A stretch of 64,000 nt of DNA from Candidatus Versatilivorator sp. (lineage in GTDB: Bacteria; Acidobacteriota; Terriglobia; Versatilivoradales; Versatilivoraceae): NCBI GenBank assembly GCA_965207735.1, contig OZ242296.1, positions 5,056,001-5,120,000 of the forward strand, written 5' to 3'. The notes below the pieces were generated by a model, which saw nothing but the letters and a program-made list of their open reading frames with translations, searched no databases and was not told where the DNA came from. The position numbers were made by a program, and so were the translations under genes. Below are positions 16,031 through 42,415 of the stretch, piece by piece (positions within the stretch are counted from its first letter, which is position 1; the number at the start of each line of letters is the position of its first letter).

Positions 16031-16273
16031 ATGCCAGACGTAGCGCTTCGTGGAATTCCCGATTCCCTGCACCGGGAACTCAAGTCATCTGCGAGTCGGA
16101 ACCACCGCAGCCTCAATGGGGAGATCCTCGCGAGGTTAACGGAGTCGGTTCGCCCTGAACCGGTAGACCCGCAGGACCTCCTGAATCGCATCCGGCAGCG
16201 AAACGAGAAACTTGGACCGGTCGATCTCAGTGAGGCCACGCTACGTGAGATGCGGAACTCCGGACGACCATGA
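16031..16273 (+). CDS. FitA/Arc-like ribbon-helix-helix antitoxin
   Basis: MPDVALRGIPDSLHRELKSSASRNHRSLNGEI. GGAGG RBS upstream of ATG 16031; ATGA overlap with the PIN gene. Confidence 0.85.
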   Translation: MPDVALRGIPDSLHRELKSSASRNHRSLNGEILARLTESVRPEPVDPQDLLNRIRQRNEKLGPVDLSEATLREMRNSGRP

Positions 16274-16671
16274 TTGTAGTTGACACGAATGTGATGGTTC
16301 GTCTGGTAGTGGGCGGAGCAGACGGCATCGAGGCGGCCATGTTGTTCGAGCGGGAGACTGAGTGGGCGGCCCCCAGCATCCTCCTGAGTGAGTTGCAAAA
16401 CGTCCTGGTCGGCTTCGTGCGCCGGGGCGCGGTAACCTCGGAGCAGGCCAAAGCGATGAGCGATGACGCTGCTGTCGTTCTGGGACACCGCATCGCCAGC
16501 GTGCCTGGAAACCAGGTGATTGATGTCGCGCTGGAGTGCGGCCTGACCGCCTACGATGCCGAGTTCGTCGCGCTCGCTCGAACCCTGGGCGTTGGGTTGG
16601 CTACTCTGGACAACGCGGTCCTGCACGGCGCCGCAGACGTGGCAGTGTCGTTGCGGACTCTGGTGCGCTAG
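16270..16671 (+). CDS. vapC: VapC/PIN-domain toxin
   Basis: MIVVDTNV, LTAYDAEFVALA and LATLD. The TAG stop lies in the CTAG target site of the adjacent IS. Confidence 0.9.
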   Translation: MIVVDTNVMVRLVVGGADGIEAAMLFERETEWAAPSILLSELQNVLVGFVRRGAVTSEQAKAMSDDAAVVLGHRIASVPGNQVIDVALECGLTAYDAEFVALARTLGVGLATLDNAVLHGAADVAVSLRTLVR

Positions 16672-18251
16672 GAGTCTGCGCCGCAGGACGATTTCGGAAA
16701 GTTCAAGAGCGAGAGGCTACTGCGCAATGCCGGTTCCAAGGAGTGCTTGGGAGCCGCTTGGGCGTTGATAGAGTCTCAAGCACCCTGTGGGCTCCCACAA
16801 TGGGCGGTTGAGGACCTCCGTGGTCCTGGGTATTGGGTGGAAATCCCTTGCTTCAGGCTGCCATCAGCGCACTCATCCTCTTGATGTTGAGGGCCAGACA
16901 CACCAAGTCCCACTCCCCCTGCACTGACTGCAAGCCCCGCAGACTGAACCGTCGGAATCCCAGCCCCTCCTTGATCCACCCATGAGGGGCTTCGGCAATC
17001 CACTTCCTCCGCCGATACTCCACCTGACCGGCTAGGCTGGCCAGCTTCTTCCTCATACGACTCTTGGCCGGATGCTTCCTGGGATCGATCTCTACCGCCC
17101 GCTTCCCCTCGCGCCCCAGCGCAACATAACCGTCCACTCCTCTCTCTTCCAGGGCCTGCAAGTCCGCCTCATTGCAGTAGCCCGCATCCGCCAGCACCTG
17201 TTTCGGTATCTCCTGGAAGCTCTCCTCCACCTCCTCCAGCAACTCCATCATCTGCCCCTGATCGCTCGCCTGCGCCGTTACCTCGGTGGCCACAATGATC
17301 TGGTGCTCTCCGTCCACCGCCACCTGCGCGTTGTAGCACTGCTGGAACCCCTCGGTGGAAGTCTTCATGATCCGGCTTTCCGGATCGGTGAAATTGCTCT
17401 GCGCCTTCTCCTCCGGTTCTCCGTAGGCCCGCTTGTAGGGCCGTCGTGCTTTCGGGTTACGGTCCTGTCCCGGTTTGCGCCCCCGCTCCTCATCAGCCTC
17501 CCGCTGGGCCGCCTCCAGCCGCTGCTTGGCCGCCTCGATCGCCGCCAGCCGGTCCTCCCGCCGACGCAACTCCTCGGGCAACTCGTCCCCACGCCGGTCT
17601 TCCCCGTAGCGCTCATCTTCCTCCCGGTCCTCCCGCCGCGCCTGCTTCAACAACTCTTCGATCTCTTCCCTCAGTTGCCGCTCCCGCTCCCGCATCCGAC
17701 CGTAGCTCATCGCCTTGCGCCGGCTCGCGTTCGCCCGCACCTTCGTCCCGTCGATCCCCAATCGCCCCAACCCCACCATCCCCATCTCCCGCGCCAAACG
17801 CACCACTTGCACCAACAGCCGCTTGAAGTCCTTCAAGTGCCGCCGGCGAAACTCGCTCAGCGTCCGATGCTGCGGAAAGTTCCCCGCCGCCAGCATCCGA
17901 AACGCCACGTCCTCCTCCAACTTCCTGGCTATCTTGCGCGACGAGAACACCCCCGTCGCATAGGCGTAGATCAATACCTTCACCATCATCCCCGGCTCAT
18001 AGGGCGAGTTGCGCCTCCCGTCCTCTTCATACCGCCGGTAGAACGCTCCCAACTCCAGCCCATCCACCAACTCGCTCACCTGATGCGCCAAGTGTCCTTC
18101 CGGTACCCACTCCCGCAGGTCCGGCGGCAGCATCAACAACTGCTTCGGTTGATACGGGCGAAACCTCGTCCCCATTCACCACCTCCCATGATGTCTCTAA
18201 GCCCGTTATTCTATCATTCAGCCCTGCCTGGGTTTTCTGCGGCGCAGACTC
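16672..18251 (-). mobile_element. IS1182-family insertion sequence
   Basis: 15-bp terminal inverted repeats GAGTCTGCGCCGCAG (16672-16686 and 18237-18251). CTAG on both sides (16668-16671 and 18252-18255). Confidence 0.92.
16853..18175 (-). CDS. IS1182-family transposase
   Basis: 440 aa. Motifs YAYATGVFSSRKI, IDGTKVRANAS, TDPESRIM, YNAQVAVD and LADAGY. Confidence 0.92.
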   Translation of the reverse strand: MGTRFRPYQPKQLLMLPPDLREWVPEGHLAHQVSELVDGLELGAFYRRYEEDGRRNSPYEPGMMVKVLIYAYATGVFSSRKIARKLEEDVAFRMLAAGNFPQHRTLSEFRRRHLKDFKRLLVQVVRLAREMGMVGLGRLGIDGTKVRANASRRKAMSYGRMRERERQLREEIEELLKQARREDREEDERYGEDRRGDELPEELRRREDRLAAIEAAKQRLEAAQREADEERGRKPGQDRNPKARRPYKRAYGEPEEKAQSNFTDPESRIMKTSTEGFQQCYNAQVAVDGEHQIIVATEVTAQASDQGQMMELLEEVEESFQEIPKQVLADAGYCNEADLQALEERGVDGYVALGREGKRAVEIDPRKHPAKSRMRKKLASLAGQVEYRRRKWIAEAPHGWIKEGLGFRRFSLRGLQSVQGEWDLVCLALNIKRMSALMAA

Positions 18252-18255
18252 CTAG

Positions 18256-19367
18256 CCCGCATTTCTCAGTGCGCCATGGAAAGGCGCCTTCTTCCAACGG
18301 GTGCGAAACCCGTCCAACAACTGTCGCTCCGGTTGGTAGCAGCCAGGGCGGATCATGGAGGTAACGATATGGTCTGAAGCCCTCTGGTGTCAAAGGGCCG
18401 CTTAAGGCGGTTCAGCGAGCATGCGGGCCGGAACGCGAGTGAACGTCGAGCAGGCCTCGAAACGGGCAATGCGGGGGCCGACCCACCTGAGAAATGGGGA
18501 AGGCCGAAGACGGAGGGGGAAGCGAGCGACGCGGGCACCCCTTTGGACCCGCCGGGGTAGTGGCGCTGGCACGCATGGAAGGGGAAGAAGGCAGCAACAT
18601 GGGAAGCCCTGTGGGTGGTGAGGCACGCACCGAACCGGAAGCTCGCGAGAGTCAGTCTAGGCCGACAGGGTGGCGGAGAGGCCTGTAGTACCGGAGAAGC
18701 CGGGTAATACCGGTGGAGGGAAGGGGCCTCAGGTGAGGAGCGGTGACCGAAGGGGGAAGGGTCCCGGGAGTGGCGAAAGCCTGAAACCCCGACCAAAAAA
18801 GGGCCGGAGACTCCGGAAGCATCACATGCAAAAGTGAAAGGGTCGTCGGAGGAGGACGGCGTCGTCAGGGCATCAACAGGCCTGGCGGCAACCCGGGAGC
18901 GGAAGTGGATGGAGTGGGGGACGGGTGCCAATCCCATAGGAGTCGTCCACGGATGCGAGCGGGGACCTGTGTGCGAGACGCATGATCCCACTGGAGAGCC
19001 GAGATGCGGGAAAACCGCACGTCCGGTTCGGAGAGCGGGGACTGGAAACGTGATAAGGGAGCCGGACTGAGGCCCGAAGCGAAAGCGACGGAATAGCCAC
19101 CGGACCCTATAGTCAACGCGCCAGTCCTCGACTCTACCCAGGCCGCTGGTGCCATGACGAAAAGTAGTTCATCTTCAGTACTTTGATTGGCTCCATGGTA
19201 AGGGCTTGCGGGCAACAGACAGCGCTGGGCATGCCCTGGCTTGTCTTTTTCCCTTCAGCGCGCACATGCTCCCTCGCGCGTAGTGACCGCTACGCTCTTC
19301 GGTCGCGAGCACGCGCTGAAGGGAAAAATCCTGCGCCATGATCATGCCCCCTGGTGAGAAATGCGGG
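18256..19367. mobile_element. Non-autonomous MITE (243 bp once the intron is removed)
   Basis: Removing the intron gives left end CCCGCATTTCTCA|CCAGG, an exact 18-bp inverse of the right end (19350-19367). Flanked by CTAG at 18252-18255 and 19368-19371. Long internal hairpin at about 19246-19328. No transposase. Confidence 0.8.
18269..19137 (+). ncRNA. ORF-less group II intron (869 nt)
   Basis: 5' GTGCG and 3' end CTCGACTCTAC. Domain V GAGCCGAGATGCGGGAAAACCGCACGTCCGGTTC (18996-19029) with AGC triad. DII/DIII-like GGCGGAGAGG..GTAGTACC..GAAGCCGGGTAATACCGGTGGAGGGAAGG. EBS1 TGAGAAA (18488-18494) in a hairpin loop matches the 5' exon TTTCTCA. No reverse transcriptase ORF. Confidence 0.92.
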
Positions 19368-19462
19368 CTAGGGTTTGCTCTGGTGAAGATGGGAACCTGT
19401 CTCCGCTGACAGCTCGACAGGATACACAGGAGAGACCGTTCCGGGCTGCCCGATCTGGGCGT

Positions 19463-19632
19463 GGCCGGCCGGGACCACAATCCCCGGGGCTTCAGTCTCT
19501 GGATGGCCGGTGGAGGAGTCAAGGGCGGAACGGTCCATGGCTCGACCGACGACTTCGGCTACCGGGCCGTGGAGAACCCGGTGAGCATCGAGGACCTGCA
19601 CGCCACCATCCTGCACCTGCTGGGCCTGCACA
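19463..19632 (+). pseudogene. 3' fragment of a DUF1501 gene
   Basis: Translates to [22 protein letters not shown]...[11 protein letters not shown]. Inverted near-copy of about 19805-19972 in the adjacent intact gene. Confidence 0.8.
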
Positions 19633-19714
19633 CAGAAGCCGAGCCGAATGGCGAAGGCTGATGCCGAGGGGGGCAATCGTGGCGTCCTGTCGGTGCGGGC
19701 TTCACCCCCACCCA

Positions 19715-21274
19715 TCACGCCAAAATTTCCCGGACGATTCTGGGTTCGTGGGTGGAGGTGAGCTTCTCGGTCAGGCCGCTGCGCTCGAAGAAGAGCTTTT
19801 CGTGGTGCAGGCCCAGCAGGTGCAGGATGGTGGCGTGCCAGTCGGCCACGCTGACGGGGTTTTCGACGGCCCGGTAGCCGAAGTCGTCGGTCGAGCCATG
19901 GACCGTTCCGCCCTTGACTCCTCCACCGGCCATCCAGACCGTGAAGGCGTAGGGATTGTGATCCCGGCCGGCGTCCTTGCCGTCGGCATGCTGCGCGATG
20001 GGCAGGCGTCCGAACTCACCGTTCCAGATCAGCAGGGTGCTGTCCAGCAGTCCACGCTGCTTCAGGTCATGGATCAGGGCGGCGACCGGCTGGTCGGTCT
20101 TCTTGCAGGCGGCTCGAATGTCGTTTTCGATGTGGTTGTGCATGTCCCAGATCTGGTTGTTGATATAGATCTGCACGAAGCGCACTCCCCGCTCCACCAG
20201 GCGGCGGGCCATGATGCAGCGCCGGGCATAGGAGTCGGGTCCGCCGATGGGATGGGTCCGCCCCCGGTATTGGGACTTCACCCCCACGCCGTACATGTCC
20301 AACGTTTCCTTACTCTCCCGGGAGAGGTCCAGGGCATCGGTGGCCGCCAACTGCATGCGGGCCGCCAGCTCGTAGCTGGCGATGCGGGCATCCAGCCGAG
20401 GTTGGCCCGGGCGGCCGCGTTTGTGGATATGGTCCAGCCGCCGCAACAGATCCTGGCCGGCCTTGACGAACGGGCGGGGCTCCTCGACCTCGGAACGCAG
20501 ATTCAGCAGGGGAGACCCGACGGAACGCACCGGCGTCCCCTGATAGAGCGGAGGCAGGTAACCGGCCTGCCAGCCCTGTGAGCCGTTCACCGGCGGCCCC
20601 ATGGGGTCTTCCAGCACCACGTAGGCGGGAAGGTTCCGGCTTTCGCTGCCCAGCCCGTAGGTCACCCAGGAGCCCAGGCTGGGGTGGCCTGGGAACATCT
20701 GACCCGAGTTGGCCATGAAGCAGGCGCCCCCATGATCGGGCGTGGTGGTGACCATGGAGCGGATAAAGGCCAGCTCGTCCACCTGCCCGGCCAGATGGGG
20801 CAGGACTTCCGACAGCCAGATGCCCGACTGCCCGTGGCGGGCGAACTTGAAGGGACTGCGCATCAGGGCCCCGGCGTCTTCGAGGTCCTGCACGTCGGCG
20901 GCGGCCATCTTGTCCAGGTAGGGCTGTCCGTGATGCTTGTCCAGCAGGGGCTTGGGGTCGAACAGGTCCATCTGGCTGGGGCCGCCGTTCATGAAGAAGT
21001 GAATGACGGCCTTGGCCTTGGGCTCGAAATGAGGGCGGCGGGGCTTGAGGTCGTACACCCGCCCGGCGGGGACAGACTTTGGGCCGGCGGACAGCGGGGC
21101 GTCTGCAAACAGCTCCCGGTTGAACAGATAGGCCAGGGCCGCACCCGCGATTCCGTCGGTCATATTGGAGAAGAAACCGCGGCGAGAAAGCAGCTGTCCC
21201 ATTGGCGATTTCCTGAGGGAATGAGGATCCATAGGGTCTACCGTGTTGGGGGACGGATCTGCCGGAGGCCGCAC
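19715..21274 (-). CDS. DUF1501 domain protein (Tat signal)
   Basis: SRRGFF, FMNGGPSQMDLFDPKP, ARRLVERGVRFVQ, GEFGR and GRDHNP. Start uncertain; alternative ATG at 21232. Confidence 0.9.
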   Translation of the reverse strand: MRPPADPSPNTVDPMDPHSLRKSPMGQLLSRRGFFSNMTDGIAGAALAYLFNRELFADAPLSAGPKSVPAGRVYDLKPRRPHFEPKAKAVIHFFMNGGPSQMDLFDPKPLLDKHHGQPYLDKMAAADVQDLEDAGALMRSPFKFARHGQSGIWLSEVLPHLAGQVDELAFIRSMVTTTPDHGGACFMANSGQMFPGHPSLGSWVTYGLGSESRNLPAYVVLEDPMGPPVNGSQGWQAGYLPPLYQGTPVRSVGSPLLNLRSEVEEPRPFVKAGQDLLRRLDHIHKRGRPGQPRLDARIASYELAARMQLAATDALDLSRESKETLDMYGVGVKSQYRGRTHPIGGPDSYARRCIMARRLVERGVRFVQIYINNQIWDMHNHIENDIRAACKKTDQPVAALIHDLKQRGLLDSTLLIWNGEFGRLPIAQHADGKDAGRDHNPYAFTVWMAGGGVKGGTVHGSTDDFGYRAVENPVSVADWHATILHLLGLHHEKLFFERSGLTEKLTSTHEPRIVREILA

Positions 21275-42380: not shown

Positions 42381-42415
42381 ATGCATCCAGCGACCCGGTG
42401 AGAAATGCGGGCTAG
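42381..42415 (-). repeat. Solo copy of the MITE end, an unoccupied intron target
   Basis: Minus strand reads CTAG-CCCGCATTTCTCACCGGGTCGCTGG, against CTAG-CCCGCATTTCTCA|CCAGGCCGCTGG at 18252. Confidence 0.8.

What the first reader, a model, noticed from the sequence alone, without database searches (positions are those of the whole stretch)
18252..19371. ORF-less group II intron whose guide sequences match a transposon terminal inverted repeat
Seen: an 869-nt intron with intact ends and domain V sits 13 nt into the 18-bp left TIR of a MITE. EBS1 TGAGAAA (18488-18494, in a CCCA/TGGG loop) pairs with exon TTTCTCA (18262-18268). A candidate EBS2, ATGCGGGC (18421-18428), pairs with GCCCGCAT (18255-18262). 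The whole recognition site is therefore the TIR, and two unoccupied copies exist in this window (19350-19367 and 42397-42411). Established: group II introns target DNA through EBS-IBS pairing, often sit in IS elements, and ORF-less ones depend on a trans-acting protein. Some ORF-less class C introns cleave DNA on their own. Inference: this is a non-autonomous hyperparasite that uses a multicopy TIR as a safe landing pad and disables the end needed for transposition. It could act as an RNA-guided brake on that IS family.
Basis: partly seen in the sequence, partly recalled or inferred. Interest (0 to 1): 0.8.

Follow-up and report, generated by a model that had tools for sequence, protein, structure and literature searches.

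The report
Guide-swapping intron parasitising transposon ends
A protein-less group II intron sits in 28 near-identical copies inside the end-repeats of one transposon family, likely spreading with a borrowed enzyme, and its relatives show that it has repeatedly exchanged its targeting domain with enzyme-coding introns, which changed the sites it occupies.

Summary
The 869-nt ORF-less group IIB intron sits 13 nt inside the end of a 243-bp IS1380 MITE. The genome holds 28 near-identical copies, all at that motif, and 15 related RT introns (class F, g3), one at the same site. EBS1 is right. Use of both ends and a replication-strand bias point to retrohoming with a borrowed RT. Homing into IS inverted repeats (RmInt2), ORF-less hitch-hikers (TeI3) and the 'IS brake' idea are all published. 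The brake is weak here: 14 of 21 IS copies are untouched. New: the element is a mosaic. Seven ORF-less introns from six genomes share D5-D6 (96-99%; at most 76% to RT introns), yet each carries the D1 of an RT intron with the same target, with at least two distinct breakpoints in three recombinants. This scan found the same element before (e1-1160209, e1-773976); the lines shown do not mention the mosaic. New variant of a known kind.

The parts
18269..19137 (+). ORF-less group IIB intron, 869 nt; one of 28 copies at least 99.6% identical
   Evidence: Rfam hits; boundaries and copies
18269..18602 (+). Domain 1 (guide domain); the part exchanged with RT-encoding introns
   Evidence: fold, motif positions, identity and trees
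18463..18467 (+). EBS2, CGGGC, pairing with IBS2 GCCCG at 18255-18259 (-14 to -10)
   Evidence: covariation over 43 EBS families, 0 of 2000 permutations; coordinates
18488..18494 (+). EBS1, TGAGAAA, in the ID3 loop; pairs with IBS1 18262-18268
18560..18560 (+). EBS3 (G), pairing with +1 C at 19138
   Evidence: 79 of 82 records pair at this position, including A:T 14 and T:A 8
18420..18425 (+).
   Evidence: fold; compensatory changes
18729..18993 (+). Domain 4, 265 nt, structured, no RT ORF; only faint traces of the ORF's two ends
   Evidence: no significant blastn or tblastn match to the helper ORF apart from the last ~25 nt before D5
18994..19031 (+). Domain 5 with AGC triad at 18997-18999
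   Evidence: RF00029 alignment
19032..19137 (+). Long domain 6 with predicted bulged A at 19131; the type specific to the ORF-less lineage
   Evidence: fold; 96-99% among ORF-less, at most 76% to RT introns over the last 175 nt
18256..19367 (+). 243-bp IS1380-type MITE (intron removed). Left TIR 18256-18268 + 19138-19142, right TIR 19350-19367
18252..18255 (+). CTAG target duplication, left; also the insertion site of IS1182
19368..19371 (+). CTAG target duplication, right
16672..18251 (-). IS1182-family element, 1580 bp, inserted in the MITE's left CTAG; transposase 16853-18175; left end faces the intron
   Evidence: NF033551 388 bits; ends
42397..42411 (-). Lone empty TIR whose CTAG holds the stop codon of a creatininase-family gene

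Best explanation
This is an ORF-less group IIB intron whose three exon-binding sites match the end of an IS1380 element, and it likely spreads by retrohoming with a reverse transcriptase borrowed from related class F introns in the same genome. Shown: its RNA can pair with -14 to -10, -7 to -1 and +1 of the IS end; 28 near-identical copies occupy left and right ends of the IS, of several MITE types and of lone ends; domain 1 and domains 5-6 have different histories. Inferred steps: a copy is transcribed from a host promoter; an RT without endonuclease binds it and helps it splice; the lariat reverse-splices into the exposed lagging-strand template at a replication fork; a nascent strand primes cDNA synthesis. 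Inverted ends give one target in the favoured orientation per element. The lineage is an old ORF-less 3' module (D4-D6) that has exchanged its 5' guide domain with co-resident RT introns by a crossover in D2-D3, probably homologous recombination or RT template switching, followed by homing. A hit probably freezes that one IS or MITE copy, as a side effect.
For: 28 of 28 copies at the motif, C at +1 and +2 in all. Of perfect sites, 23 of 67 on the locally G-rich strand are occupied against 5 of 94 on the other; binomial 23 of 29, p=0.002. Of 45 elements with two perfect ends, 20 have one end hit, none both, and 16 of the 20 use the favoured end. Private intron variants recur at different element types and ends (433C>T in one right and one left MITE end). 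MITE ends with an IBS1 -1 change: 0 of 9 occupied against 12 of 40. EBS1, EBS2 and EBS3 covary with targets. 15 RT loci exist, one with the same guides in an IS1380 end; the RT has RVT_1 and GIIM only. Mosaic: D1 of each ORF-less intron is 95-99% identical to an RT intron of its target family and 85-91% across the A versus non-A split, while D5-D6 is 96-99% among ORF-less and at most 76% to RT introns. AU test rejects one ORF-less clade in D1 (p=1.5e-6; 8.7e-5 with the EBS region left out). Breakpoints at alignment columns 401-414, 336-348 and about 392-414. All 3 G004 copies share one breakpoint at three sites. L056 is an RT intron with an IS1634-end 5' exon, an IS1380 3' exon and an internal crossover.
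Against: No splicing, lariat or exon-ligation joint was seen in 4 RNA runs laid, all assembled contigs of relatives. No mobility assay. GC skew is irregular from 2.8 to 4.5 Mb, so strand calls are a local proxy, and the 16 family B/C intron loci show no bias (9 of 16). Which RT is the helper is unknown: the same-guide RT intron is single, sits at a mismatched site, and its D4-D6 differ from the ORF-less ones. Two right-end IS insertions lie at the same position of a dispersed repeat, and two MITEs share a haplotype, so some movement as a unit or by gene conversion is not excluded. Two of the three breakpoint intervals overlap, so they may be one event. The direction of the D1 exchange is not rooted, and the genomes are kin.
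Confidence: 0.82

Rival explanations
1. The intron is kept because it restrains IS1380: an RNA-guided brake that benefits the host by splitting transposon ends.
For: Insertion separates the outer 13 bp from the rest of the TIR; 7 of 21 full IS copies are hit; occupied MITEs mostly have distinct haplotypes, as expected if hit copies stop moving. Toro et al. propose this role for RmInt1/RmInt2 (PMC5894124, passages).
Against: 14 of 21 IS copies are free and 19 or so are near-identical, a sign of recent spread. Transposase frames in hit copies stay open. 22 of 29 hits are in MITEs or lone ends. Empty ends versus occupied-type junctions in five sisters show no clear inverse trend: G004 108/0, G005 207/17, G008 49/1, G009 602/about 8, G011 48/13. 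The same 3' module also targets non-IS repeats.
Confidence: 0.15
2. The D1 mosaic is incidental gene conversion among repeated DNAs, with no role in how the ORF-less intron keeps spreading.
For: About 45 related intron copies share 85-95% identity over 470 nt, which invites recombination; D2-D3 is patchy across many pairs. Gene conversion between intron copies was reported for c-Ha.de.I1 (PMC3522654, passages).
Against: Recombinants sit at correct targets of the donor family with both exons matching, and the G004 recombinant is at three sites. The family C ORF-less copy keeps ORF-less sequence to within about 12 nt of its 3' end, leaving little homology for a second crossover in place.
Confidence: 0.3
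3. The copies multiplied passively, as cargo of a MITE or IS that transposed with the intron inside, or by DNA-level conversion of empty ends.
For: 17 of 28 copies are in MITE ends; one MITE pair shares a haplotype; two IS copies are hit at the same end in the same repeat context.
Against: Both ends of both element types, variant MITEs and lone ends are used; host MITEs differ by several percent while introns are identical; strand bias; intron variants cross element types.
Confidence: 0.07
4. The RNA acts without protein, cutting or entering TIR DNA on its own like the ORF-less class C ribozymes.
For: Intact ribozyme; protein-free reverse splicing into DNA was shown in vitro for another IIB intron (PMC11754743, abstract only).
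Against: Not class C (EBS2 present, no terminator hairpin before the site, class F affinity). Full-length precise DNA copies need reverse transcription, and 15 related RT loci are present.
Confidence: 0.04

Closest known systems
RmInt2 of Sinorhizobium meliloti GR4 in the inverted repeats of ISRm17 (PMC4615759, passages read)
   Same: All copies in IS inverted repeats; both ends usable; short EBS2-IBS2 pairing; bias to the lagging-strand template; no endonuclease.
   Different: RmInt2 encodes its own class D RT (7 copies). This one is ORF-less, 28 copies, class F/g3 affinity, targets IS1380 and mostly its MITEs, and is a D1/D4-D6 mosaic.
ORF-less TeI3 introns of Thermosynechococcus elongatus (PMC2882425, passages read)
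   Same: ORF-less copies outnumber RT introns, derive from one deletion, are mobilised in trans (shown there), carry different EBSs; one family sits in an IS200 element.
   Different: There the passages attribute retargeting to EBS mutation in a lineage with an endonuclease-bearing RT. Here whole D1 domains were exchanged with RT introns, the RT lacks En, and D5-D6 have diverged far from the helpers.
Class F, group g3 introns, e.g. Ni.ha.I1 (PMC3552965, parts 1-3 of 4 and Table S2 read)
   Same: Helper RT groups with Ni.ha.I1 and the A. caldus g3 ORF at 99/99; YADD; RT-X only; about 2-kb introns.
   Different: Only 45% identical to Ni.ha.I1; forms its own 100/100 clade with introns of marine or sponge-type bacteria; I found no report of its mobility, TIR targeting or ORF-less satellites.
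c-Ha.de.I1 of Hamiltonella (PMC3522654, passages read)
   Same: About 29 recent copies, IS targets, a gene-conversion tract between subgroups.
   Different: No ORF-less partner or retargeting by domain exchange in the passages seen.
IS4321/IS5075 targeting Tn21 terminal repeats
   Same: A mobile element that specialises in another element's terminal repeat.
   Different: DNA recombinase of the IS1111 type, not a retroelement.

Membership tests
Group II intron, subgroup IIB | GUGYG...AY ends and catalytic domain 5 with AGC triad | tested here: met
Group II intron, subgroup IIB | EBS1-IBS1, EBS2-IBS2 and EBS3-IBS3 pairings | tested here: met
   covariation over 43 EBS families (129 records); EBS3 pairs in 79 of 82
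Group II intron, subgroup IIB | Six-domain fold with bulged branch A in D6 | tested here: met
   predicted folds; four D1 helices paired in at least 75 of 82 sequences per pair
Group II intron, subgroup IIB | Splices as a lariat in vivo | tested here: inconclusive
   RNA-run contigs of relatives cover the intron; no lariat or ligated-exon joint listed
ORF-less (non-autonomous) group II intron | No RT ORF in D4 | tested here: met
   265-nt D4; no significant tblastn hit; no Pfam hit for the overlapping antisense ORF
ORF-less (non-autonomous) group II intron | Related RT intron in the same genome | tested here: met
   15 loci, 83-100% aa to the same-guide RT, one frameshifted
ORF-less (non-autonomous) group II intron | Mobilised in trans by that RT | not testable with these tools
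   inferred from copy number, identity and strand bias
Bacterial class F, group g3 | RT clusters with g3 references; YADD; no En domain | tested here: met
   helper RT with Ni.ha.I1 and A. caldus g3 at 99/99 in a 25-row tree; g4 and basal class F references not included. Applies to the ORF-less intron through 92% identity over its first 475 nt
Class C / HYER-like ORF-less introns | Insertion after a terminator-type stem-loop, no EBS2 (features from PMC4424553 passages and recall) | tested here: not met
   EBS2 covaries; no terminator before 18269; RT far from the attC-type RTs
RmInt2-like TIR-homing introns | All copies in IS inverted repeats, either end | tested here: met
   28 of 28 at the TIR motif; 25 at ends of IS or MITE copies, 3 at lone motifs
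RmInt2-like TIR-homing introns | Lagging-strand-template bias | tested here: met
   23 of 67 versus 5 of 94, with local GC skew as proxy
RmInt2-like TIR-homing introns | Own class D RT | tested here: not met
   no ORF; helpers group with g3; no verified class D reference in the tree
IS1380 family and its MITE | IS1380 transposase, TIRs, short target duplication | tested here: met
   NF033539 410 bits (cut-off 180); 1698 bp; 4-bp YTAR duplications
IS1380 family and its MITE | Short non-coding multicopy element sharing the IS ends, moved in trans | tested here: inconclusive
   32 copies of about 243 bp with shared TIR and duplications; movement by the IS1380 enzyme not tested

The most novel reading that the evidence does not exclude
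A long-lived satellite retroelement: a protein-less ribozyme chassis (D4-D6) that stays mobile by capturing the whole guide domain of whichever RT intron shares its genome, so inheriting that intron's target and probably its enzyme. It belongs to a class F lineage that has re-aimed again and again at transposon ends (IS1380, IS1634, IS4-like) across several phyla, and here outnumbers the same-target helper 28 to 1 while freezing the IS copies it hits.
Probability: 0.4. Interest if true: 0.7.

Novelty: new variant of a known kind. Interest (0 to 1): 0.52.

Why it matters
Retargeting of group II introns is usually ascribed to point changes in the EBS loops. Here it appears to happen by exchange of the whole guide domain between a non-autonomous intron and its helpers, with breakpoints visible in natural genomes. 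That offers a ready test of how modular D1 is and how an ORF-less intron keeps pace with changing helpers. It also gives a compact 869-nt class F intron with dozens of natural target pairs, which fix EBS1, EBS2 and EBS3 for a class with little mobility data. The genome is a natural experiment on whether splitting an IS end stops transposition, a claim made in reviews but, in the passages I read, not tested for inverted-repeat homing.

Tried and rejected
A second look-alike, ATGCGGG at 18469-18475, also complements the exon but is mostly the ID(iv) helix. Independent ORF deletions from each RT family: rejected, since D5-D6 would then match the RT introns. ORF-less intron as a recent deletion of the same-guide RT intron: rejected, D4-D6 differ. 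Assembly artefact for the copy number: unlikely; in run X19 the intron contig has depth 241 against 4-15 for unique flanks with no differences. 'The whole clade is TIR-specific': rejected. Family B uses a dispersed repeat (268 matches), family C a hairpin, and two other target types are dispersed motifs not shown to be IS ends. RNA evidence: contigs cover the intron in 4 of 4 RNA runs, and in X3 summed depth is 28,000-79,000 against 0-760 in bins away from intron and MITE, but the tool warns that this is a poor measure, the MITE is also high, and no splice joint appears. Outward IS1182 promoter: no sigma-70-like site on the + strand in 17900-19500. The IS1182 association could not be replicated: 1 of 13 occupied sites in G011 has such an end beside it by coordinates. 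EBS2a-IBS2a (PMC8643678, passages): not tested; its described position does not match the A at -15 here. Simon et al. 2008 was not held. No structure, complex, atlas or large protein search was run; none bears on an RNA element.

Full report
OBSERVATION. The window is G000:C1:5056001-5120000 of a complete 5.26-Mb genome. The intron runs 18269-19137 (869 nt) with canonical ends and hits Rfam group-II-D1D4-4 (80.8 bits) and Intron_gpII (41.2 bits). D4 is 265 nt with no RT frame. Removing the intron leaves a 243-bp element with 18-bp inverted ends and CTAG on both sides. Close relatives bear record titles in Acidobacteriota (Ca. Versatilivorator, Terriglobia), and RNA runs that hold the stretch include sponge metagenomes.

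THE TARGET. The 13-mer occurs 157 times exactly, against 0.14 expected. It bounds 21 copies of a 1.7-kb IS whose transposase scores 410 bits on the IS1380 model and 32 MITEs of 235-250 bp. Duplications such as TTAG/TTAG and CTAA/CTAA show that YTAR is a target duplication, so the TIR begins at CCCGC. All 28 copies at least 99.6% identical lie after this 13-mer (one with a single change) and before CC: 6 in IS ends (2 left, 4 right), 17 in MITE ends (12 left, 5 right), 2 in variant MITEs and 3 at lone motifs.

THE GUIDES. I collected relatives from 61 genomes (32 with a match), 40 fetched regions and 76 RT loci, the best of 281 matches. After dropping tandem copies and cut exons, 129 records fell into 43 EBS families. 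Families are kin, so these counts overstate independence. EBS3 is G18560: 79 of 82 records pair. In G011, five copies with EBS2 CGGGT all sit at sites with A at -14, so the RNA reads one base of the duplication. T-16/A-15 sites are favoured (26 of 123 vs 2 of 38, p=0.027), perhaps read by the protein (inference).

HOW IT MOVES. Of perfect sites, 23 of 67 on the locally G-rich strand are occupied against 5 of 94 on the other. No element of 45 with two perfect ends has both hit, and 16 of 20 singly hit ones use the favoured end. This matches the lagging-strand-template route of En-less introns (PMC4615759 and PMC8919778, passages). Against it: skew is irregular over 2.8-4.5 Mb, and families B and C show no bias (9 of 16). 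Host MITEs are diverse while introns are identical, and private intron variants recur in different ends, which argues for repeated homing and not for carriage. The genome has 15 related RT loci: one with the same guides in an IS1380 left end, 13 of family B (one frameshifted), one of family C. The RT is RT-X only, YADD, and groups with class F g3 references at 99/99 (PMC3552965 Table S2). Which RT helps is unknown.

THE MOSAIC. The ORF-less intron matches the same-guide RT intron at 92% over nt 1-475 but hardly beyond. ORF-less introns of 860-869 nt occur in G000, G004, G005, G008, G009 and G011. Over the last 175 nt, seven of them are 96-99% identical to each other and at most 76% to nine RT introns (one of these, L079, is interrupted in D6). 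Over D1, each is 95-99% identical to an RT intron of its own target family: G000 family C pair 99%, G004 family B pair 99%, G005 family A pair 99%. An AU test rejects one ORF-less clade in D1 (p=1.5e-6; 8.7e-5 on the first 185 nt, without EBSs); the group was named from the D5-D6 tree. Informative sites switch from RT type to ORF-less type at columns 401-414 (G000, family C), 336-348 (G004) and about 392-414 (G008), so at least two events. The three G004 copies share their breakpoint at three sites, so that recombinant likely homed afterwards. L056 (G009) preserves a crossover between two RT families, with an IS1634-end 5' exon and an IS1380 3' exon. Direction is not rooted. Chromosomal recombination and RT template switching both fit.

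THE WIDER CLADE. RT relatives sit at ends of IS1380 in a Gemmatimonadota record (L137), of IS1634 in Acidobacteriota (L088, L090, L097) and in an Amylibacter record (L133), and 2 nt from the end of an IS4-like element in Bryobacterales records. Others use repeats that are not shown to be IS ends. The common theme is multicopy targets.

THE BRAKE. Seven of 21 IS copies are hit and 14 are free; transposase frames remain open. Most hits go to MITEs. Sister genomes show no clear inverse trend between occupied and empty ends. Local immobilisation is plausible but untested; a family-wide brake is not supported.

EXPRESSION. Contigs of relatives cover the intron in 4 of 4 RNA runs laid; no splice or lariat joint is listed. 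This does not show splicing.

WHAT IS KNOWN. RmInt2 homes into both inverted repeats of ISRm17 (PMC4615759, passages). The control-of-IS idea is in PMC5894124 (passages). ORF-less introns mobilised in trans, with diverged EBSs, are in PMC2882425 (passages) and are called rare in PMC4424553 (passages). Gene conversion between intron copies is in PMC3522654 (passages). Specialised lineages named in PMC12584367 (passages) do not include IS ends. Eight searches listed no paper on a group II intron in IS1380 ends or on guide-domain exchange by an ORF-less intron. The library lacks most subscription papers, Simon et al. 2008 was not held, and I read no supplements other than one table. The class C DNA-cleaving ribozymes are recalled, not read.

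VERDICT. Real, mostly as described, with one wrong guide. The landing-pad strategy is known; the guide-domain mosaic is the new part. New variant of a known kind, interest 0.52.

Noticed in passing
window 16668-18255 and 10 other genome sites: IS1182 inserts at CTAG; 10 of its 13 paired copies sit at the CTAG beside an IS1380-type TIR, though only 97 of 1718 CTAGs do. Those TIRs are enriched for the intron: 7 of 9 vs 10 of 68 perfect sites (p=2e-4), 6 of 6 vs 8 of 28 on the favoured strand (p=0.002), always with the IS1182 left end facing it. Post hoc, unexplained, not replicated in G011.
   Followed up: partly
window 16270-16671: PIN-domain gene (toxin-antitoxin type) whose stop codon is the CTAG into which the MITE and then IS1182 inserted; a short upstream ORF near 16032-16270 may be its partner.
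   Followed up: no
window 19361-19670: Fragment similar to the 3' part of the neighbouring DUF1501 gene (19715-21274, minus strand), in inverted orientation just right of the MITE.
   Followed up: no
L002:811-827 (G000:C1:409311) and 267 other matches: A dispersed repeat with 268 matches hosts 13 family B RT introns, and several IS1380 copies insert at its CTAA.
   Followed up: partly
G000:C1:4260992-4261108: 117-nt remnant: family C 5' end joined to the ORF-less 3' end, at a family C hairpin site.
   Followed up: partly
G000:C1:2901407-2905074; L055:854-2922; L057: IS1634-like elements of about 2.08 kb insert into IS1182 and into intron copies; their own ends are the target of a sister intron family.
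   Followed up: partly
L089, L115-L116, L123-L125, L127, L132, L136: Head-to-tail tandem arrays of related introns, including 719-nt ORF-less copies in L127.
   Followed up: no
L018, L070 (G048); L022, L024, L074 (G047, G055): Other ORF-less introns (about 909 and 722 nt) at YTAR-CCC sites in other families of the class; their relation to this lineage is untested.
   Followed up: no
L196-L207 (G062-G065): A dispersed semi-palindromic TGTMAAC...TTACA motif, 1-33 matches per genome, serves as intron target; its nature is unknown.
   Followed up: partly
G000 whole chromosome: Cumulative GC skew is lopsided (maximum at 0.73 Mb, minimum at 4.51 Mb, local reversals at 2.8-4.0 Mb), suggesting inversions between repeats.
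   Followed up: no
window 18364-18393, minus strand: One sigma-70-like site (10 of 12) inside intron D1, pointing towards the IS1182 transposase; 0.2 expected by chance.
   Followed up: no
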